Positions 1,396-9,434 are shown, counted from the stretch's first letter. The stretch: 64,000 nt of DNA from an uncultured Myxococcales bacterium (GCA_964480565.1 CAYZSU010000003.1:1415-65414), one strand, 5' to 3'. The notes: generated by a model not told the origin, from the sequence alone. A program made the numbers and translations.

Positions 1396-1497
1396 AATTC
1401 CTCCTTAGATTATTTTTTATCAATTGAAAGTAAGGGGTATTATAGTAATTTTTTTTGAATCTGCAATGGTTTATTAAGATAATTTAAAAGGAGGATT

Positions 1498-1556
1498 GTT
1501 GAAATTGCTGAGCCGAGAATCGGAATTGAACCGACGACCTGCTGATTACGAATCAG
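1498..1556. repeat. attL: 59-bp direct repeat identical to 9349..9407 (duplicated 3' part of tRNA-Thr plus 13 bp downstream)
   Basis: Exact match gttgaaattgctgagccgagaatcggaattgaaccgacgacctgctgattacgaatcag at both sites; divergence starts at the next base (g versus c). Confidence 0.85.
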
Positions 1557-1698
1557 GCGGTCTTATTTATATCGACATAGATTGAGATATATTATCCTTT
1601 ACATATCAACATGTTAAACGTTATTAACTGTTATCGTGATAGCTGGTAAACGATGTTTCGTGCTTGCTATGTGATTGCTGTAAATGATTGGGAGGGGT

Positions 1699-2901
1699 AT
1701 GAAGATTACCAAGAGTAAGGTTGTGGCATTGAAACCATCGGAAAAAGACAAGCTTTATTGGGATGATTCATTGGCAGGCTTTGGGATAAAGGTGACGCCA
1801 AAAGGAAAGAAATCCTATGTGTATCAATACCGATTGGGCGGCCGGCGAGGCCGGACAAAACGAGTGTCATTGGGTGTTCATGGTGCGGTTACTACAGAGC
1901 AAGCACGGCGTGATGCAGTAAAAATTTCTGGCCAAGTTGCGCAAGGGATTGATGTTGCAGAGGATAAACGCAAAAAGAATACTTCACTAAGGCTCTCAGA
2001 AGTGATGGATGTCTTTTTTAGGGAGCATGTTAATATAAAGCTCAAACTCTCAACGCAGCGCGATTATGAGGGGCTTGTTAGGCTTCATATCAAACCAGCT
2101 TTGGGTAATATCAAGATTGATGAGCTCAACCGAAGTGATATTGCTAGATTCCATAATCGAATGAAGAATACACCGTATTATGCCAATCGTGCCTTGGCTC
2201 TGCTCAGTAAGTTGATGTCATGGTCGGAAGGGCACGGTTATCGATCAATCGGATCTAATCCCTGTATTGGCCTTGAAAAATATCATGAGAAGAAGCGTGA
2301 AAGATTTCTAAACGATGCAGAACTTCATAAATTGGGAATGGCAATTACAAAACTTGAAGAGAGTGGGAATATTTCTGAATACGCTGCGGCAGCTATCCAC
2401 ATGCTCCTTTTCACCGGCTGTCGTCTTCAGGAGATTTTAAAACTCAAATGGGATGAGGTGGATGATGCGAGAGGGTTGCTCCGATTAACCGACACAAAAA
2501 CGGGTCAACGCAATGTAATTATAAATGCTTCTGCGCTAGAAGTGCTTCAAGGAGTAAAGCGAATTGAAGGAAATCCATACGTGTTTTGTGGCCATAAGCC
2601 AGGTCAGCCGATCATCGAATTACGCAAATCTTGGAAACGTGTTTGCATGGTCGCAGAAATTGACAATGTACGCCTTCATGACTTGCGTCATACGCATGCG
2701 AGTGTCGCTATTGCAGCTGGTTACTCCCTTCCAGTTATTGGTTCTCTTCTGGGGCATACACAACCTCAAACTACTGCCCGTTATAGTCATCTCAGTGAAA
2801 GTCCAGCCCGCATTGCCTCGGAATCGGTAGGTGAGCACTTAAACCGCGTGATGAGTGGCAAGGGAACGGTGAGGAGTTTAAAGACTGTGGGTAGTAAATA
2901 G
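1699..2901 (+). CDS. int: Tyrosine-type site-specific integrase, P4-like (N-terminal arm-binding DUF4102-type domain)
   Basis: C-terminal catalytic motifs HDLRHTHAS...LLGHTQPQTTARYSHL (R-HxxR-Y); N-terminal LYWDDSLAGFGIKVTPKGKKSYVYQYR; RBS gggagggg upstream of the ATG at 1699 (ORF track begins at 1684). Confidence 0.9.
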   Translation: MKITKSKVVALKPSEKDKLYWDDSLAGFGIKVTPKGKKSYVYQYRLGGRRGRTKRVSLGVHGAVTTEQARRDAVKISGQVAQGIDVAEDKRKKNTSLRLSEVMDVFFREHVNIKLKLSTQRDYEGLVRLHIKPALGNIKIDELNRSDIARFHNRMKNTPYYANRALALLSKLMSWSEGHGYRSIGSNPCIGLEKYHEKKRERFLNDAELHKLGMAITKLEESGNISEYAAAAIHMLLFTGCRLQEILKLKWDEVDDARGLLRLTDTKTGQRNVIINASALEVLQGVKRIEGNPYVFCGHKPGQPIIELRKSWKRVCMVAEIDNVRLHDLRHTHASVAIAAGYSLPVIGSLLGHTQPQTTARYSHLSESPARIASESVGEHLNRVMSGKGTVRSLKTVGSK

Positions 2902-2916
2902 TCAAAGGAGTTAATT

Positions 2917-4023
2917 ATGTCGATGTTAGCCTTTTTCCCATGGTTGAAGATTGCCGAGGATGTTGAATGCGATGATTTTAAGTTGATTCGATATGAAAGA
3001 GGGCGGCTTCCAGGTCCAGTAGGCAGCGAAATGCAAAAGATTTGTGATCGTTTGCTACAGCCTTTTGTTGAGCGTTATTATGATTCTGATGATAATGATT
3101 GTCCAGTTGCCAATGCCACAATCTGCCTACTTAAGAACAAGGATCTATTTGATGATTATGATGAAAGTGATCGGGAGAATTTATTCGAAATAGCTGAAGT
3201 GGTCGCCTTTTGCGGCCTTGCAAAAAGAGAATACTTTCAAGGTTTTTTTGACAATTATCATAATGCGGATAGCTATCATCTTGTTATGCAGGGGTTTGAA
3301 GGTTCTGACGGTGGTTCTTGTATTATAACGCGTCGTCGTGACGGTAGCAATAAGGATCTACGTTCAAAAGATACTTACAAGGTCAGTAGGCCATTTAACG
3401 TGGGTTGCAATAACACAATAAAGCTCGACATATCCCTTATGAATGCCCTTATTAAAGCGCTAGAGGATGAAAAGTTGAGTCTGGCATGTGCCGATGCGAT
3501 TTTTAGTTTCAATAAAGCCAATACAGATAGTTCATTGATGACCGAATACCATGAAATGGTTTTTATGTTGAGTGCGATGCAGCGGCTCTTTAATTGTAAT
3601 TATAAAGAGGATAATACTGCAAAAGCATTTATGAGCTTGATGGATTCATATTCTAAACTAAAAGTTTCCAACAGTGATCGATTAAAAGGGCACCAAAAGC
3701 AAACAAGAACTATTTCAGAAGCATGGCTTCGGGATTTTTTTCAGCTGAGGGGGCATTTTGCTCATGGGAAACGGGTGAGTCAGCAGAAACACTATTGGAC
3801 GCTCAAAGAACATCTGCTATTCGCCTCATATATCATTCCGTTATTGGCCAAACAAAAGCTTTCAAATGAAGGATACTATTCATTGACCGATGATGATTTG
3901 TCCCAGCTACGTACCTTCGAAAAACTGCTGGATGAGGATGTGTTCAAAAAAATATCCAAAGAATGTGAACAACAATGTTTTGAATGGAATCGTGTGGTTG
4001 ATGAAGAAAAAGATAGGTTGTGA
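2917..4023 (+). CDS. Hypothetical protein (368 aa), translationally coupled to the integrase; island cargo
   Basis: Starts 13 nt after the int stop with RBS aaggag; no recognised domain; contains QLRGHFAHG (R-x4-H, HEPN-like spacing, speculative). Confidence 0.6.
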   Translation: MSMLAFFPWLKIAEDVECDDFKLIRYERGRLPGPVGSEMQKICDRLLQPFVERYYDSDDNDCPVANATICLLKNKDLFDDYDESDRENLFEIAEVVAFCGLAKREYFQGFFDNYHNADSYHLVMQGFEGSDGGSCIITRRRDGSNKDLRSKDTYKVSRPFNVGCNNTIKLDISLMNALIKALEDEKLSLACADAIFSFNKANTDSSLMTEYHEMVFMLSAMQRLFNCNYKEDNTAKAFMSLMDSYSKLKVSNSDRLKGHQKQTRTISEAWLRDFFQLRGHFAHGKRVSQQKHYWTLKEHLLFASYIIPLLAKQKLSNEGYYSLTDDDLSQLRTFEKLLDEDVFKKISKECEQQCFEWNRVVDEEKDRL

Positions 4024-4066
4024 TGGGCAAATATCGCAAAAGATCTTGAAGAGTTAGAGGGATAGG

Positions 4067-4735
4067 ATGAAAAAGGAAATCTGTAAAAAATTAAAATCTA
4101 GTCCAAAAAAACGTGATACATCACTTCGAGCTCAAGAGCGAGGAATCTATAACTGCATTAGAAGGGATGCTGATATTAAGGAGCTTGGTTGTGATGCATG
4201 TAGAAGTATTGCGAATAAGCTGGCTCGTGGACTAAGAGACTTTGGCAGGAAGGGATGTGTTGAAGCGTCGAAAGAGATTGTGGCTCTGAATCTGGGATAT
4301 AAAGTTAAGGTTAAAGGAAGAAGTCGGTCGATTACAGATAATGAGGTTGAAAAGTTTTATCAGTACTTTATCCAGGCCTCAGAAATTCAGACTATAGAGT
4401 CCTCTAAAAGAAAGATGCTTGAATATGCCGATGTATTAAAAGACCTGCAGAAAAGAAGAGTTAGATATAAGGACAGTAGAAAACGTGAAGCAAAAATTGA
4501 TAAACAAATGTTAAAGGGAAGCGAAAAATTTGTAATCACTGCTTTGATGAAAGAAATTGTTGATATTGTAGATTTTGAACTGAAGAAAAAGAGGTATTCA
4601 GAACGTCGATATCTTGATCATTCCTTTAAGTTGGTTGCAGTAATATTCCAGTCAATTGCGGATCCTTCCATAGCGAAGTTCAACTGGAAGAGGATTAAAT
4701 CGAGTGTCAATAAGTCGTTACCTCCGATGAAATAG
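4067..4735 (+). CDS. Hypothetical highly basic (Lys/Arg-rich) protein (222 aa); island cargo
   Basis: RBS gaggga upstream; co-directional and 43 nt downstream of orf368; composition suggests nucleic-acid binding. Confidence 0.55.
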   Translation: MKKEICKKLKSSPKKRDTSLRAQERGIYNCIRRDADIKELGCDACRSIANKLARGLRDFGRKGCVEASKEIVALNLGYKVKVKGRSRSITDNEVEKFYQYFIQASEIQTIESSKRKMLEYADVLKDLQKRRVRYKDSRKREAKIDKQMLKGSEKFVITALMKEIVDIVDFELKKKRYSERRYLDHSFKLVAVIFQSIADPSIAKFNWKRIKSSVNKSLPPMK

Positions 4736-4851
4736 TGCTTAAATTTCACTTAGGTATCACTGTCGATATTCTGCAGTGGTTCCCTTTCTCGCAATATTCT
4801 GAATGACTCTGTATTCTCCTGTGTAAATCATAACACATGGGAGGAAATGTC

Positions 4852-5064
4852 ATGAACCAAGATAAGAAGTATTTACGTACCCCAGAAGCGGCGTCCTATA
4901 TTGGATTATCTGAAAGCACTTTGATCAAGGATAGGTGGAGCGGTCATCTTCAAATTCCTCATGTTAAAGTTGGTCGTTCGGTTCTTTACGATATTGGCGA
5001 CCTTGACGCGTGGTTAAATGGGCTAAAGGTAAACACGATTGAGGTCAAACATGAAGGATCGTAA
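4852..5064 (+). CDS. alpA: AlpA-family phage transcriptional regulator / excisionase-like DNA-binding protein
   Basis: YLRTPEAASYIGLSESTLIKDRWSGHLQIPHVKVGRSVLYDIGDLDAWL matches the AlpA/Xis HTH pattern; RBS gggagg 7 nt upstream of ATG 4852. Confidence 0.85.
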   Translation: MNQDKKYLRTPEAASYIGLSESTLIKDRWSGHLQIPHVKVGRSVLYDIGDLDAWLNGLKVNTIEVKHEGS

Positions 5065-5500
5065 GTCTGTAGAAAATGAAGACTTTGGATGTCCAATACT
5101 TGATGCCTTTATGTATGTGCCGGAAGGGATATATGACGTGGCATTTGTTAGATATGACCGTCCTGTAAATGTATTTGGCCCTGATGAACGAAGAATATTT
5201 TTTCACTGGAAAATCGTGACGCCTGGTGAATATTTTGAAGTACAACTATTTCAGTCATTTAAGCACTATGAAAGATGGGGAACACAATCGAAATACTATC
5301 GATGCTGGTGCTTGGCGGCTGGGCAGCGTCCACGCCGTCGAACAAGGATGACGCCAGATGTTTTTAAAGGTAAAATCTTTAAGGCTTCAGTTGAAATCGT
5401 ACAACCAAAATATGAGGATGGACCTTTTAAAGGAAAATCTCGGCCCGAGGCGGAGTGGTATAGTGTAGTCCGAAATTTATTGGAGATTATCGCAGGATGA
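5051..5500 (+). CDS. Hypothetical protein (149 aa), overlaps the alpA stop (translational coupling)
   Basis: ATG at 5051 preceded by gagg; no recognisable motif. Confidence 0.5.
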   Translation: MKDRKSVENEDFGCPILDAFMYVPEGIYDVAFVRYDRPVNVFGPDERRIFFHWKIVTPGEYFEVQLFQSFKHYERWGTQSKYYRCWCLAAGQRPRRRTRMTPDVFKGKIFKASVEIVQPKYEDGPFKGKSRPEAEWYSVVRNLLEIIAG

Positions 5501-5740
5501 AAAATCAGCGAATAGACATTAGTATTCAGTAGCTAGAAACCAGCAGAAAGAAACAAACAACTACCAACTTAGGGTCGATAAAAGTGTTGTCAAATGATCA
5601 TCTGCTGGATGCTTTGGACAAGTAGCACCTTTGGAAGCGGCTAACCAGAAAATATGCCAACAGCTCGGCTCTAACTTAAAGATGAGTCAGAGTCGAGCGC
5701 CAAAGGGTTGTGTTAATAACAGGAAAAACAGGTAATTTTA

Positions 5741-6154
5741 ATGCGAGATAATAAAGGAAAATTTTTGTCAGGATACAGTGGAAATCCGGATGGACGGCCA
5801 TCTGGCTGCCAAAGCAGGCTCTCGAAGGAACTTCAGCATGCAGCGGAGGATATCCTTCCACTCTGGATTGATGCTGCTTGTAAAGGTGATGAGGAGAAAC
5901 AGCGGTTTTTATTGGAGAGGGGACTTCCAAAATTTAAGGCTCAATCACCTGAGGTGAATATCAACCTTGATAGCGAAAGCAATACTGAGCGCATACGGTT
6001 GCTGTTGGTCGCTGTTGCGAAAGGGGAAATCCCTTCATCCGTAGCATCTGAGATCGTATCCATGATTGCAGCGGCAGCGAAGGTGGGGGAGATCGAAAAG
6101 CTGAAAGAAGAACTTGCAGCGGTCAAACTGATCCTGTCGAAGCGAAAGAAATGA
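5741..6154 (+). CDS. DUF5681-like phage/satellite-associated protein (137 aa)
   Basis: N-terminal SGNPDGRPSG resembles the GNP-x-GRPKG signature of DUF5681 proteins found in phages and satellites; coiled-coil C-terminus. Confidence 0.5.
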   Translation: MRDNKGKFLSGYSGNPDGRPSGCQSRLSKELQHAAEDILPLWIDAACKGDEEKQRFLLERGLPKFKAQSPEVNINLDSESNTERIRLLLVAVAKGEIPSSVASEIVSMIAAAAKVGEIEKLKEELAAVKLILSKRKK

Positions 6155-6162
6155 GGTGAAGA

Positions 6163-6687
6163 ATGAATACTTTTCAGTTGAGGGAAAAATATCGATATTT
6201 GACGCCGCAGGAGCGGGCAAAACTGTTTCTGTCTCAAGCGGTTCCCTACCAGGATAATCTCTTGGCCAACACCTTATCTTCTGAGACGCTATACGAGAGC
6301 TATCTGATGAATCTTACCGAATCACGATTGGTGATCTTTGGCATGTATTGGCTAAACAAGCTTACATTTCTTGAAGGAATGAATTCGAAAATCATTATGT
6401 CAGAGGATTTTGATACTGAATTTCAGAAACGATACGGTGATTTTGGCGATCCGGCTGCCGCGCTTGCTTATGTATTGAGCGAATTCGACAAGGAACATGG
6501 GGGCTGGCTGCAAGGTATTGCCGTTATTATGGGTTGTCAGGAATGTTGGGATCGTGCCCTTGCACGTAGCAAACTTATTCAACAATATAATCTCGATCAT
6601 AATTTCCCCGATCGCGTAGATAATATTTATAAAAATGTGCTGTCATTTTGGGAACACGTAGAACATTTGGATAATATTCAAAGTTGA
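6163..6687 (+). CDS. Hypothetical protein (174 aa)
   Basis: ORF with RBS gaggtg; 8 nt after the previous gene; no recognisable motif. Confidence 0.5.
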   Translation: MNTFQLREKYRYLTPQERAKLFLSQAVPYQDNLLANTLSSETLYESYLMNLTESRLVIFGMYWLNKLTFLEGMNSKIIMSEDFDTEFQKRYGDFGDPAAALAYVLSEFDKEHGGWLQGIAVIMGCQECWDRALARSKLIQQYNLDHNFPDRVDNIYKNVLSFWEHVEHLDNIQS

Positions 6688-6893
6688 GTTATATGAGGTT
6701 AATCTATTTATGAACCTTCAGGATTTTTCCGTCTTCGAGGGAGTGGCTCACGCGATGTTGCAGGATATGATTAGATTGTGGCGCGAGTGGTTATTTTTCA
6801 TTAATAATTATGAGACGGTAAGTGTCATGGAATGAGAACAGCTGCAAATTAGAAAATGTAAAGTCAGATGATACTACAATGAGAGCATTGTTG

Positions 6894-7637
6894 TTAGAAT
6901 AATTCAATTTGAAGATATTTCCAACAATTTGGAATGCTGCACGGTAAATTGAAGTTTTTTTCGTAAACCTTTTCAAAAAACATTTTTCTTACATCCTCTT
7001 TTTTTAATTTCAGAATTTCGATTTGATCTATAGTCAATCGAATTGTAGCGGGTGGAATATAAGCTTGTTTCGGATCGAATGGCTTTGCTTCAGCTAACAA
7101 TGAATCTTCCGTGTTTTGTGTGTGAATGTCGCTAGGTCCATTGAGATCTAGATAGCACTTAGAGAGTAGATGACGAAGTGATTCTGTATGTTTTCCTTCA
7201 GCATGCAGGATTTCTGCCATTTCCCAGTGGCAAAAACTATATTTCATCCATTCGTTATTACCGGCGTAAATTGAGAGTTGTTGGTTTAATATTGGCCAAC
7301 GCCTATTTCTTTCTTTTCGGCGCTTGGCTTCCTCTTCTTTTAATAGTATTTTCCCTTCCTCTAGATTAAATACTTTCTTCAGGTTTCTCTCTGTAAAATA
7401 AATGTGAATGTATTCATTTGAACAATGAGGGCAAATCCTCTTTCGTTTTCTACCAGGATTAATGAGTGGAGTCTTGCAATGTGGGCAATCATATTCTTTA
7501 TGAACCGGTGGTAGCTTAATGAATGGTTGTTCTGGTAATTTATGCTCGGTGATTTTGTTCTTCTTCCTTTTTCTTTTAATGTAGTGATTTACACAGAGTG
7601 ATAGTGAAAGTAATATGATAAACACTGTAAACCACAT
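6894..7637 (-). CDS. Membrane-anchored zinc-ribbon protein (247 aa); second gene of a leftward two-gene module
   Basis: N-terminal TM helix MWFTVFIILLSLSLCV, basic stretch, then CPHC-x15-CPHC zinc ribbon; C-terminal domain unknown. Confidence 0.6.
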   Translation of the reverse strand: MWFTVFIILLSLSLCVNHYIKRKRKKNKITEHKLPEQPFIKLPPVHKEYDCPHCKTPLINPGRKRKRICPHCSNEYIHIYFTERNLKKVFNLEEGKILLKEEEAKRRKERNRRWPILNQQLSIYAGNNEWMKYSFCHWEMAEILHAEGKHTESLRHLLSKCYLDLNGPSDIHTQNTEDSLLAEAKPFDPKQAYIPPATIRLTIDQIEILKLKKEDVRKMFFEKVYEKNFNLPCSIPNCWKYLQIELF

Positions 7638-7686
7638 CTATAAGCCTCCAGTTCTTGGGTTTGTTTACATATTCTCTTTTAACACC

Positions 7687-8454
7687 TTACTGCAAAACAT
7701 TGTCATTCTTTTCTTCAAGGAGTTTTGTCTTTCGTTTCTTCTTGTTTGGCAGTGATATCTTGATCGTTTCCATCTCATTATTGGCGGCTTCATTGAGAAG
7801 ACGGCGGATACCGCTGACGATTTCTTCTGGTGTAATCATAATTCCAGTTGTTCGGCGAAGCTCTCGGCGTATTCGTCGAAGATTATCTTCGGATAATATC
7901 GTTTCAAGGAGGTTGCCAGCTGAAAGCACATTGCGCTTTTTCCAAAGGGCATCGAGGCCACCCTTTTTGACGTTTTTGAATCCAATTTCCTCAAATCGCT
8001 CTGCAAGTAATGCAGGGGAGTCATTGAGTATGTTCCATGTATAGATTAGTTTCGTCTGAGGGGGTTGGCCGAATGAAATGTGATACAACTGCCATTCACG
8101 TCCATTGCTGAGCATAACCCATTCACAGCCTTTGTTAATGGCATAAGAGGCAGCCTGCTTGATATGCTTAGTAGCGAGATCAACATTTACTCGTTTGAGT
8201 TCAATGAGAATGATAGGTTCAGCATTATCAAGTTGGACTGCAAAATCGCAATATTCAATTTCCCCAGGGCCTTGGACTGCGTGTTCGCGAGTGACATGCT
8301 TAAAAACATCATATCCCATAAGTGAGTGGATAATTCTTTCAACGCGTCGCCTGGTTTCGGCTTCATTTCCATCTATATGCATGAGTTCCTGGATCATCTT
8401 TTGTGACTCTCGAATTGCTTTACGTGTTTCGGCTGCCATTTTTGCACGTGCCAT
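7687..8454 (-). CDS. PD-(D/E)xK nuclease-fold protein, HsdR-N-terminal-like (255 aa)
   Basis: GEIEYCDFAV...IILIELK gives a D...(E)xK catalytic arrangement typical of restriction-endonuclease-like nucleases; Arg-rich C-terminal extension. Confidence 0.55.
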   Translation of the reverse strand: MARAKMAAETRKAIRESQKMIQELMHIDGNEAETRRRVERIIHSLMGYDVFKHVTREHAVQGPGEIEYCDFAVQLDNAEPIILIELKRVNVDLATKHIKQAASYAINKGCEWVMLSNGREWQLYHISFGQPPQTKLIYTWNILNDSPALLAERFEEIGFKNVKKGGLDALWKKRNVLSAGNLLETILSEDNLRRIRRELRRTTGIMITPEEIVSGIRRLLNEAANNEMETIKISLPNKKKRKTKLLEEKNDNVLQ

Positions 8455-8540
8455 GATTGAATCGCCCTTTCTTTTTCCTTCTGCTGGATATGGTCAATAA
8501 TACCATAGGCAGATATACCTGTGGTCTATATAAGTCAAGC

Positions 8541-8765
8541 ATGACCTATGAAGAAACTTATGCCGCTTTCTCAAAACGTTTTCGTGGAAATTTGAAGAAA
8601 GCTTTGGCGGATGCAGGTTTGACACAAAGAAAGCAGCTTCTTGCTGGTCTAGATCCTCGTTACATTGCACGAATTAAAGCAGGTCAAGGCAATCCTACCC
8701 TTCAAACCATCTGGCGACTTGCTATTGCCGCTGGCATCGACCCTGAGAAGCTGTTTAAGAAGTGA
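8541..8765 (+). CDS. XRE-family helix-turn-helix transcriptional regulator (about 74 aa; start uncertain, ORF track begins at 8457)
   Basis: C-terminal TLQTIWRLAIAAGIDPEKLF is HTH_XRE-like; divergent from the nuclease gene. Confidence 0.5.
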   Translation: MTYEETYAAFSKRFRGNLKKALADAGLTQRKQLLAGLDPRYIARIKAGQGNPTLQTIWRLAIAAGIDPEKLFKK

Positions 8766-8837
8766 TTATTTGATTCGTCTTATGTTTGAAATATAATGAT
8801 GTACAAAAAGCAGGGAACACCGTTCCATAGATCTTAA

Positions 8838-9026
8838 TCTAAGCTTATCAGTAGAGGTCGCAATGCAGGCCTACTAGAAGCAAGGTATCGTCGAAATGTG
8901 TTTCTAGCAGATTGCTTTGCATTAGCGTTTTCCAGAAAAATGGGTGCAAAACTCATCACTTCTGATTTAAAATTAATAGAGGCGATTTCTGGAGATTTCA
9001 ATTATGCAATCTGTTTATTCAGATAA
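8838..9026 (+). pseudogene. PIN-domain (VapC-like) toxin remnant: C-terminal 62 codons only, no start codon, no antitoxin
   Basis: Open frame translating ...NVFLADCFALAFSRKMGAKLITSDLKLIEAI... resembles the VapC C-terminus (AD-x-x-IAA-x-A-x-x-G-x-x-L-x-T-x-D); preceded by an in-frame stop at 8835. Confidence 0.45.
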
Positions 9027-9348
9027 AACTTGAAAAACTTAGGGCGAAGGCTGAGTTAAAACTAAAGCAAGAAAGGCTGTATTAAAAAGGACAATGCTTG
9101 CACTGTAATAAAATATATTTTTCATATCTAGCCTCCTTTGAAGTTCGTCTATAAAAAAGAATATTGAACCCAGCATGATCCGCCACACGGTCATCACCGT
9201 CCTAAATTTTCCAATCACATTTCAAAGAACTACAGGACTATTCATTTTAACATAGCCACGTATAGATTTAACCATTCGTAGAAAATTTTGATGTGCTTAC
9301 TATGTGCTTGCTAGAAAAAAATGGGGCTGCTGCAAAAGACCGTAACCT

Positions 9349-9407
9349 GTTGAAATTGCTGAGCCGAGAATCGGAATTGAACCGACGACCTGCTGATTAC
9401 GAATCAG
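9349..9407. repeat. attR: 59-bp direct repeat, overlaps the 3' 46 nt of tRNA-Thr
   Basis: Identical to 1498..1556. Confidence 0.85.
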
Positions 9408-9434
9408 CTGCTCTACCAACTGAGCTATCTCGGC
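9362..9434 (-). tRNA. tRNA-Thr (anticodon CGT), 73 nt; integration target of the island
   Basis: Cloverleaf folded by eye on the reverse complement: GCCGAGA acceptor, GCTC/GAGC D-stem, GCTGA-TTCGTAA-TCAGC anticodon arm, TTCAATT T-loop. Confidence 0.85.

What the first reader, a model, noticed from the sequence alone, without database searches (positions are those of the whole stretch)
6894..8765. Leftward module of a PD-(D/E)xK nuclease plus a membrane-anchored zinc-ribbon protein, with a divergent XRE regulator
What the sequence shows: the 255-aa protein carries D (CDFAV) and ExK (IELK) residues spaced as in HsdR-N-type PD-(D/E)xK nucleases, plus an Arg-rich tail. A 247-aa protein lies 50 bp downstream on the same strand, with one N-terminal TM helix and a CPHC-x15-CPHC zinc ribbon. 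A small HTH_XRE gene is divergent from the pair. The inference: a nuclease effector with a membrane zinc-ribbon partner and an adjacent XRE repressor is a recurrent layout of anti-phage defence loci, but this particular combination does not match any named system I know.
Basis: inference. Interest (0 to 1): 0.7.

Follow-up and report, generated by a model that had tools for sequence, protein, structure and literature searches.

The report
Solo restriction-type nuclease on a mobile island
The three genes are real, but the nuclease and the zinc-ribbon protein come from two separate, widespread, uncharacterised families that never occur together elsewhere, so this is cargo on a small mobile island and not a new two-gene defence system.

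Summary

The "system" inference fails its own refutation test. The nuclease belongs to a large solo family (at least 932 relatives, about 60% identical) with no conserved neighbour. The zinc-ribbon protein belongs to a different uncharacterised family (312 cluster representatives). Across 142 fetched loci (1.09 Mb), 46 carry the first family, 92 the second and none carries both. The closest relative of each protein also lacks the other. The XRE gene recurs only beside the 77%-identical nuclease.

All three genes sit at the integrase-distal end of a 7.85-kb island in tRNA-Thr, bounded by 60-nt exact repeats. No methyltransferase is present and nothing matches a named defence system.

My best reading is an XRE-controlled, stand-alone restriction-type endonuclease next to an unrelated accessory gene. 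This is a new member of a known kind, of modest interest.

The parts
7687..8454 (-). 255-aa stand-alone HsdR-N-type (HSDR_N_2) PD-(D/E)xK nuclease. Core is residues 28-141, followed by a helical C-domain (147-230) and a disordered Lys/Arg tail.
6894..7637 (-). 247-aa protein with an N-terminal TM helix, a CPHC-x14-CPHC zinc ribbon and a TPR-like all-helical C-domain (about residues 92-246). It belongs to a separate, uncharacterised family absent from Pfam.
   Evidence: No Pfam, NCBIfam, PHROG or PADLOC family. 312 cluster representatives by exhaustive phmmer. Alignment A2. AF2 pLDDT 84.7. Only weak TPR-like fold matches, best E 0.24. Own GGAGG RBS.
8541..8765 (+). 74-aa XRE-family (HTH_3) regulator, divergent from the nuclease gene.
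   Evidence: HTH_3 E 2.2e-7. PADLOC 'Control_protein' E 1.6e-6. 81% identical homologue in the same divergent position in L006. Public gene call of 74 aa.
8455..8540 (.). 86-nt divergent intergenic region, the presumed promoter/operator region. It contains the 6-7-6 inverted repeat TATGGTCAATAATACCATA at 8489-8507.
   Evidence: Sequence read directly. The region is only partly conserved against L006 and the inverted repeat is not conserved. No consensus sigma-70 match was called here. The regulatory role is inferred.
1497..1556 (.). Island boundary repeat next to the integrase gene: a duplicated 3' part of tRNA-Thr plus 13 nt.
   Evidence: 67-nt direct repeat at 96%, of which 60 nt are exact. 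Rfam finds a weak tRNA match at 1511-1576 (-).
9348..9434 (-). Intact tRNA-Thr(CGT) at 9361-9434, containing the other boundary repeat (9348-9407).
   Evidence: ARAGORN, Rfam 73.3 bits, repeat.
1684..2901 (+). 405-aa tyrosine integrase of the island (Arm-DNA-bind_3 / Phage_int_SAM_3 / Phage_integrase).
   Evidence: phrog_1 E 2e-75. Pfam domains on the public gene call.
2917..6687 (+). Rightward island genes: 368-aa and 222-aa unknowns, AlpA-like HTH_17 (4837-5064), 153-aa unknown, DUF5681 protein (5741-6154) and a 174-aa unknown.
   Evidence: Pfam HTH_17 E 2.2e-8 and DUF5681 E 2.1e-6, no family for the others. No relatives in viral contigs.

Best explanation
The locus is the cargo end of a 7.85-kb island integrated in tRNA-Thr. 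It carries two functionally independent accessory genes that happen to lie side by side.

(1) An XRE-regulated, stand-alone restriction-type DNA endonuclease. It is a full-length member of a large, tightly conserved family of about 255-290 aa. Each member consists of the nuclease 'head' of type I HsdR / type IIG enzymes, a helical extension and a basic tail. Databases label the family 'HsdR N-terminal domain-containing protein' or 'predicted type IV restriction endonuclease' (COG2810-like).

(2) Downstream and probably co-transcribed, a membrane-anchored zinc-ribbon / TPR-like protein from a different uncharacterised family.

Shown here: domain identities, intact catalytic residues, the solo distribution of both families, the island boundaries, and the absence of any methyltransferase or helicase partner.

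Inferred: the XRE protein represses the divergent promoter region. The nuclease cleaves DNA through D70/E85/K87, with the Q100xxxY104 motif. Because it has no cognate methylase, it either attacks only modified or otherwise foreign DNA (type-IV-like) or is held silent by XRE until induced. The zinc-ribbon protein has no enzymatic domain and acts separately, most likely as a membrane-tethered protein-binding factor of the kind carried as a moron by mobile elements.
For: Nuclease identity:
- Pfam HSDR_N_2 above threshold.
- Invariant D70, E85, K87, Q100 and Y104 across 27 relatives.
- AF2 model with pLDDT 81.6.
- Foldseek best hit is the DrdV nuclease domain, then HsdR 3h1t, Cas4 and BpuSI.

Solo family:
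- 932 hits, the top 120 all 250-317 aa and 58-77% identical.
- 42 genome loci in Dehalococcoidia, Planctomycetota, Desulfobacterota, Zixibacteria, Auribacterota and others.
- No conserved neighbour at positions +-4 in the 41 loci analysed.
- 140 neighbours hit 120 different Pfam families.
- Only one of those 140 neighbours matches a methyltransferase model.

Independence of the two families:
- 0 of 142 loci carry both.
- The nearest relatives of each protein break the pair.

XRE link:
- The same divergent XRE gene (81% identical) sits next to the 77% nuclease relative, although the downstream gene differs.
- The XRE protein matches the R-M control-protein profile.

Island:
- 60-nt exact repeats spaced 7851 nt apart, one of them inside tRNA-Thr.
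- Integrase and an AlpA-like gene.

Zinc-ribbon family:
- 312 cluster representatives.
- Neighbours include Ltp, SHOCT, integrases, TIR, DndB and IS110.
- TPR-like fold only.
Against: No experiment bears on activity or target.

Against a defence reading of the nuclease family:
- Its usual neighbourhoods are dominated by housekeeping genes, not defence islands.
- It is unusually well conserved for a defence nuclease (median pairwise identity 51% across phyla).
- No modified-base-reading domain was detected, so 'type IV-like' rests only on the lack of a methylase and on database labels.

Against full independence of the two genes:
- Here they are on one strand, 49 nt apart, with no predicted terminator between them. 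A lineage-specific functional link cannot be excluded.
- Only about 46 of at least 932 family contexts were examined.
Confidence: 0.55

Rival explanations
1. XRE, nuclease and the membrane zinc-ribbon protein form one new anti-phage system, in which the membrane protein senses infection or tethers and activates the nuclease effector.
For: Same strand, a 49-nt gap and no predicted terminator between the two genes. The genes sit at the cargo end of a mobile island. The TM-bearing sub-branch of the zinc-ribbon family has at least one other member (P0122). A distant relative (P0123) sits between a DUF3320/AAA_12 helicase, an HNH protein and a 1566-aa MmeI-like methyltransferase.
Against: No co-conservation: 0 of 41 analysed nuclease loci, 0 of 80 zinc-ribbon loci and 0 of 142 pooled. 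The closest relative of each gene lacks the other. No PADLOC system matches.
Confidence: 0.12
2. The 255-aa family is a cellular DNA repair or recombination nuclease (a housekeeping accessory factor). The island merely captured a copy, so its presence here says nothing about defence.
For: Neighbours are mainly housekeeping genes such as FTHFS, ThiC, QueA, RNase E/G and aminoacyl-tRNA synthetase. Conservation is strong. In several Dehalococcoidales loci the gene lies between NurA and HerA, and in others it follows a UvrD helicase. The fold also resembles Hjc, Cas4 and Dna2.
Against: There is no fixed genomic position or partner. Nearest neighbours cross phyla (Desulfobacteraceae-Pirellulaceae 76%, Auribacterota-Planctomycetota 74%). 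The gene occurs on a mobile island here, in a PHROG family and in 3 IMG/VR contigs. In two lineages it is paired with an XRE/C-protein-like regulator. The best structural matches are restriction-enzyme heads, not repair nucleases.
Confidence: 0.2
3. XRE and the nuclease form a toxin-antitoxin-like addiction pair that stabilises the island. The nuclease is a self-DNA toxin held off by the XRE repressor/antitoxin.
For: The XRE-nuclease pair is retained in the two closest lineages while the flanks differ. There is no methylase to protect host DNA. A possible PIN-toxin remnant lies nearby.
Against: The genes are divergent, not an overlapping co-directional operon. About 40 other family members lack any XRE-type neighbour (HTH_3 in only 2 of 140 neighbours), so the nuclease is tolerated without it.
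Confidence: 0.12

Closest known systems
N-terminal endonuclease domain of type I HsdR subunits (EcoR124I 2w00; V. vulnificus 3h1t) and of type IIG/IIL enzymes (BpuSI 3s1s, DrdV 7lo5, MmeI class)
   Different: It is a free-standing 255-aa protein. There is no SF2 translocase, methyltransferase or target-recognition domain, and no hsdM/hsdS genes on the island. It has its own conserved helical C-domain and basic tail.
COG2810 / 'predicted type IV restriction endonuclease' and other solo 'HsdR N-terminal domain-containing proteins'
   Same: JGI gives exactly this name to several close relatives. Steczkiewicz et al. 2012 (PMC3424549) group HSDR_N, HSDR_N_2, COG4748 and COG2810 together. These are solitary nucleases without a methylase.
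   Different: The label is a prediction. No member of this subfamily has been characterised as far as I could find. No modified-base-reading domain is detectable.
C-protein (controller) regulated restriction genes
   Same: A small HTH_3 protein matches the PADLOC 'Control_protein' profile (E 1.6e-6) and lies next to a restriction-type nuclease gene.
   Different: There is no methyltransferase. The orientation is divergent. No conserved C-box was found.
Small tRNA-integrated islands and phage-satellite-like elements that carry defence or moron cargo (P4-type integrase plus AlpA)
   Same: Arm-DNA-bind_3 tyrosine integrase, AlpA-like HTH_17 gene, tRNA 3'-end duplication, 7.85 kb in size, accessory genes near one end. 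That satellites carry defence hotspots is from my own knowledge (Rousset et al. 2022), not tested here.
   Different: No primase/replicase, capsid-redirection or packaging genes could be recognised. Its other genes have no relatives in viral contigs. Satellite status is therefore unproven.

Membership tests
PD-(D/E)xK nuclease, HSDR_N_2 / HsdR-N type | Profile match above the curated threshold | tested here: met
   PF13588 scores 46.1 bits against a cut-off of 25, E 5.9e-12.
PD-(D/E)xK nuclease, HSDR_N_2 / HsdR-N type | Catalytic D...(D/E)xK triad present and conserved, plus the RecB-type QxxxY motif (motif definition from my own knowledge of EcoR124I/RecB-family work) | tested here: met
   D70, E85, K87, Q100 and Y104 are invariant in 27 family members.
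PD-(D/E)xK nuclease, HSDR_N_2 / HsdR-N type | Restriction-endonuclease-like alpha-beta-beta-beta-alpha-beta core fold | tested here: met
PD-(D/E)xK nuclease, HSDR_N_2 / HsdR-N type | Metal-dependent DNA cleavage | not testable with these tools
   Needs biochemistry.
Type I restriction-modification (HsdR subunit) | Nuclease fused to an SF2 translocase, with hsdM/hsdS genes adjacent | tested here: not met
   The protein is 255 aa with no helicase domain. No N6_Mtase or HsdS match on the island.
Type IV (modification-dependent) restriction enzyme | Solitary nuclease without a cognate methyltransferase | tested here: met
   No methylase on the island. One methyltransferase-model match among 140 neighbours in 41 loci.
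Type IV (modification-dependent) restriction enzyme | Recognisable modified-base-sensing domain (SRA, EVE/YTH, McrB-N, DUF3578 and similar) | tested here: not met
   Nothing but HSDR_N(_2) is detected. The C-domain is helical and matches only linker regions of HsdR and type IIG enzymes.
Type IV (modification-dependent) restriction enzyme | Cleavage dependent on DNA modification | not testable with these tools
   Needs assays on modified and unmodified DNA or phages.
Multi-gene anti-phage defence system (named or candidate) | Component profiles match a catalogued system | tested here: not met
   PADLOC gives only sub-domain or weak hits: MTase_II head E 5e-4 and a spurious Cas13a hit E 3e-3.
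Multi-gene anti-phage defence system (named or candidate) | The genes are co-conserved as a unit across genomes | tested here: not met
   0 of 142 loci hold both families. No conserved neighbour cluster.
Multi-gene anti-phage defence system (named or candidate) | Enrichment next to known defence genes | tested here: inconclusive
   Nuclease-family neighbours are mostly housekeeping, with a few defence-type genes. Zinc-ribbon-family neighbours include Ltp, TIR, DndB and integrases. No statistical background was computed.
tRNA-integrated genomic island | Tyrosine integrase plus direct repeats that duplicate the tRNA 3' end | tested here: met
   60-nt exact repeats at 1497-1556 and 9348-9407, the latter inside tRNA-Thr. 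Integrase.
Type II toxin-antitoxin pair (XRE antitoxin) | Co-directional, tightly coupled two-gene operon conserved with the toxin family | tested here: not met
   The genes are divergent with an 86-nt spacer. XRE is present only in the window and L006. HTH_3 is found in 2 of 140 other neighbours.

The most novel reading that the evidence does not exclude
The roughly 255-aa 'HsdR head plus helical domain plus basic tail' family could be a self-sufficient single-gene anti-mobile-element nuclease, widespread in Chloroflexota and Planctomycetota and so far uncharacterised. The Zn-ribbon/TPR-like family, which is absent from Pfam, could be a second, independent single-gene exclusion or defence factor. 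The island's cargo end would then be a two-gene mini defence island. A smaller possibility, about 0.1, is that in this one lineage the two have been recruited into a real membrane-tethered nuclease pair.
Probability: 0.3. Interest if true: 0.5.

Novelty: new member of a known kind. Interest (0 to 1): 0.3.

Why it matters
The result removes a false lead: gene adjacency on a mobile island is not evidence of a system.

It also flags two large protein families with no known function. One is a very well conserved solo restriction-type nuclease with at least 932 relatives. The other is a Zn-ribbon/TPR-like family with more than 300 clusters at 50% identity and no Pfam model. If either proves to be a single-gene defence or exclusion factor, that would add to the catalogue. 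Nothing here challenges current understanding.

Tried and rejected
1. Contig L050 is exactly 7851 nt, the same as the repeat spacing, which looked like an excised circle. It maps to window 1527-9377. That is what a k=31 unitig between two 60-nt identical repeats gives (7791 + 2x30), so it is not evidence of a circular form.

2. The 19-nt inverted repeat in the XRE-nuclease spacer was considered as an operator. It is not conserved in L006, so it remains only a candidate.

I repeated it with the 8-sequence alignment A3.

4. PDB sequence searches found nothing significant for the nuclease family, the zinc-ribbon family (generic ribbons only), the 368-aa protein or the 153-aa protein.

5. NCBIfam has no family for any island protein except a weak XRE hit.

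7. Phage and plasmid collections gave only distant relatives, at most 37% identity, with generic names.

8. The 174-aa, DUF5681 and 153-aa island genes have no relatives in viral contigs, so the island could not be classified as a satellite.

9. Literature searches for PF13588, HSDR_N_2 and COG2810 found only the 2012 superfamily survey. The enterococcal type IV enzyme paper contained none of the domain terms I searched for, so it was not used.

Full report
**Observation**

The ORF list shows a 255-aa ORF at 7687-8454 (-), a 247-aa ORF at 6894-7637 (-) and an HTH ORF at 8457-8765 (+).

- The 255-aa protein matches Pfam HSDR_N_2 (PF13588) at E 5.9e-12, 46.1 bits against a cut-off of 25.
- The 247-aa protein has an N-terminal hydrophobic helix and CPHC (51-54) and CPHC (69-72). 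The spacing is x14, not x15. It has no significant family in Pfam, NCBIfam, PHROGs or PADLOC.
- The gap between the two genes is 49 nt. The second gene has its own GGAGG ribosome-binding site, and no terminator is predicted between them.
- The XRE gene matches HTH_3 at E 2.2e-7. A close homologue and the public gene call put its start at ATG 8541, giving 74 aa.

A direct repeat of 67 nt at 96%, of which 60 nt are exact (1497-1556 and 9348-9407), brackets the region.

- The right copy lies inside an intact tRNA-Thr(CGT) at 9361-9434.
- The left copy is a tRNA remnant lying 128 nt upstream of a P4-type tyrosine integrase gene at 1684-2901.

Between the repeats are the integrase, two unknown proteins (368 and 222 aa), an AlpA-like HTH_17 gene, a 153-aa unknown, a DUF5681 protein and a 174-aa unknown. 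Then come the leftward nuclease / zinc-ribbon pair, the XRE gene and a possible PIN-domain remnant.

The finding is therefore the integrase-distal cargo end of a 7.85-kb integrated island. A 7851-nt public contig (L050) is a de Bruijn unitig artefact of the 60-nt repeats, not evidence of a circle.

**The nuclease**

A word-seeded search found 932 relatives. The best 120 are all 242-317 aa, cover the full length at 58-77% identity and carry PF13588. JGI names several of them "predicted type IV restriction endonuclease".

In an alignment of 27 members, D70, E85, K87, Q100, Y104 and about 50 other positions are invariant. Conservation extends through a C-terminal region to residue 236.

The AF2 model (pLDDT 81.6) shows three parts:
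- the alpha-beta-beta-beta-alpha-beta core;
- a helical C-domain (147-230);
- a disordered basic tail.

Structure searches agree on the fold:
- Foldseek's best PDB hits are the DrdV nuclease domain, an HsdR fragment (3h1t), Cas4, DUF820 and BpuSI.

The nuclease fold is well supported. The protein looks like a detached "head" of type I / type IIG restriction enzymes. The 2012 superfamily survey groups HSDR_N, HSDR_N_2, COG4748 and COG2810 together (PMC3424549).

**Co-conservation test, nuclease side**

The 77%-identical relative (P0002, locus L006) keeps the divergent XRE gene at 81% identity. It is followed by an unrelated lipoprotein-like gene and an SNase gene.

A scan of one genome per species returned 42 loci from Dehalococcoidia, Planctomycetota, Desulfobacterota, Zixibacteria, Auribacterota, Actinomycetes and others.

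- tblastn found no relative of the 247-aa protein or of the XRE protein in any of them.
- Clustering of the four genes on either side, possible in 41 of the loci, found no conserved neighbour.
- 140 flanking proteins hit 120 different Pfam families, mostly housekeeping. HTH_3 appeared in 2 of them.
- PADLOC hits among these neighbours were sporadic, and only one was to a methyltransferase model.
- A subset of Dehalococcoidales has the gene between NurA and HerA/patatin genes. Another lineage has it after a UvrD helicase.
- Median pairwise identity is 51%, and some nearest neighbours cross phyla, which indicates some horizontal transfer.

**Co-conservation test, zinc-ribbon side**

The word-seeded search found only two relatives.

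- The 48% relative, which also has a TM helix, follows an unrelated 144-aa membrane protein.
- The 28% relative sits between a DUF3320/AAA_12 helicase, an HNH protein and a large MmeI-like methyltransferase.

An exhaustive phmmer search then found 312 cluster representatives, 80 of them at E <= 1e-10. These define a family with this consensus: CPxC-x(about 15)-CPxC, IYVRTRP...RVLVTE, then a helical domain with W..LN, WGLYRN, YLEVCYLDLNGP.N, PPFDP and LP.SP..AW. A few members are fused to HEAT repeats or TerB_N.

The AF2 model (pLDDT 84.7) gives only weak TPR-like fold matches (best E 0.24). A profile search of the PDB finds only generic zinc ribbons.

A metagenome scan confirmed 371 relatives. 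In the 80 loci kept (397 kb), no gene matched the nuclease-family profile. Thirteen loci share an XRE - Ltp lipoprotein - SHOCT/DUF4429 - zinc-ribbon array. Other neighbours include integrases, FRG, DndB, a TIR protein, IS110 and HerA.

**Pooled result**

Over all 142 fetched loci (1.09 Mb), 46 carry the nuclease family, 92 carry the zinc-ribbon family and none carries both. Both families are rare in viral contigs: 3 and 12 hits among 2.9 million.

**Interpretation**

The best-supported reading is a stand-alone restriction-type endonuclease whose only recurrent companion is the XRE regulator. That companion is seen in the two closest lineages and also matches the R-M "control protein" profile. 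Next to it lies an unrelated accessory gene. Both are cargo of a small mobile island.

How the nuclease spares host DNA without a methylase is unknown. Modification-dependent (type-IV-like) targeting or tight XRE repression are the obvious options. Neither is shown, and no modified-base-reading domain is detectable.

A housekeeping repair role for the family (probability about 0.2), an XRE-nuclease addiction pair (about 0.12) and the original three-gene system (about 0.12) remain as rivals.

**Novelty and score**

The nuclease is a new member of a known kind: a solo HsdR-N / "predicted type IV" nuclease. The zinc-ribbon/TPR-like protein belongs to a sizeable family with no Pfam model and no known function, which is mildly interesting in itself. 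Nothing here is very surprising to a specialist, and no long-standing question becomes testable. Interest is 0.3.

Noticed in passing
window 1497-9407: A complete 7.85-kb integrated island in tRNA-Thr(CGT). It has 60-nt exact boundary repeats, a P4-type integrase and an AlpA-like gene, but no recognisable replication, packaging or transfer genes. Most of its proteins have no family and no relatives in viral contigs.
   Followed up: partly
window 8838-9023 (+): A stop-bounded 62-codon frame between the XRE gene and the tRNA reads like the C-terminal third of a PIN-domain (VapC-type) toxin (...ADCFALAFSRKMGAKLITSD...). Pfam PIN scores E 0.019 on model positions 81-115 of 120, below threshold. 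It is probably a decayed toxin gene.
   Followed up: partly
window 2917-4023 (+): The 368-aa protein just after the integrase gene has no family hit. It contains an RGHFAH (Rx4H) motif reminiscent of HEPN/Abi-type RNases. This is a motif-level impression only.
   Followed up: no
L134 5615-11114 (also L013, L015, L033, L044): In several Dehalococcoidales genomes the nuclease-family gene sits inside a NurA - nuclease - 199-aa - HerA (HAS-barrel/DUF87) - patatin cluster. This is the only recurrent context seen for the family. It may reflect shared ancestry or a NurA/HerA-type module.
   Followed up: partly
L083 about 2000-4300 (and 12 similar metagenome loci, e.g. L084, L085, L096, L099, L126): The zinc-ribbon/TPR-like family recurs at the end of a co-directional array: XRE (68 aa) - Ltp-family lipoprotein (PF07553, E 6.5e-49) - SHOCT/DUF4429 protein - zinc-ribbon protein. 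This suggests a prophage or mobile-element moron cassette.
   Followed up: partly
L002 173-8373: A 28%-identical relative of the 247-aa protein lies between a DUF3320/AAA_12/MTES_1575 helicase-nuclease, an HNH protein and a 1566-aa N6_Mtase/MmeI-like enzyme. This is a defence-island-like setting without any HSDR_N_2 gene.
   Followed up: no
window 5039-5064: The AlpA-like gene (4837-5064) and the mechanical 153-aa ORF (5039-5500) overlap by 26 nt. The public gene call, 149 aa, overlaps by about 14 nt. This suggests translational coupling of the excision regulator with an unknown island protein.
   Followed up: no
L135 4524-8375: In one lineage (also L007) the nuclease-family gene follows a UvrD-type helicase on the same strand and is followed by an IS200-type Y1 transposase.
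   Followed up: no
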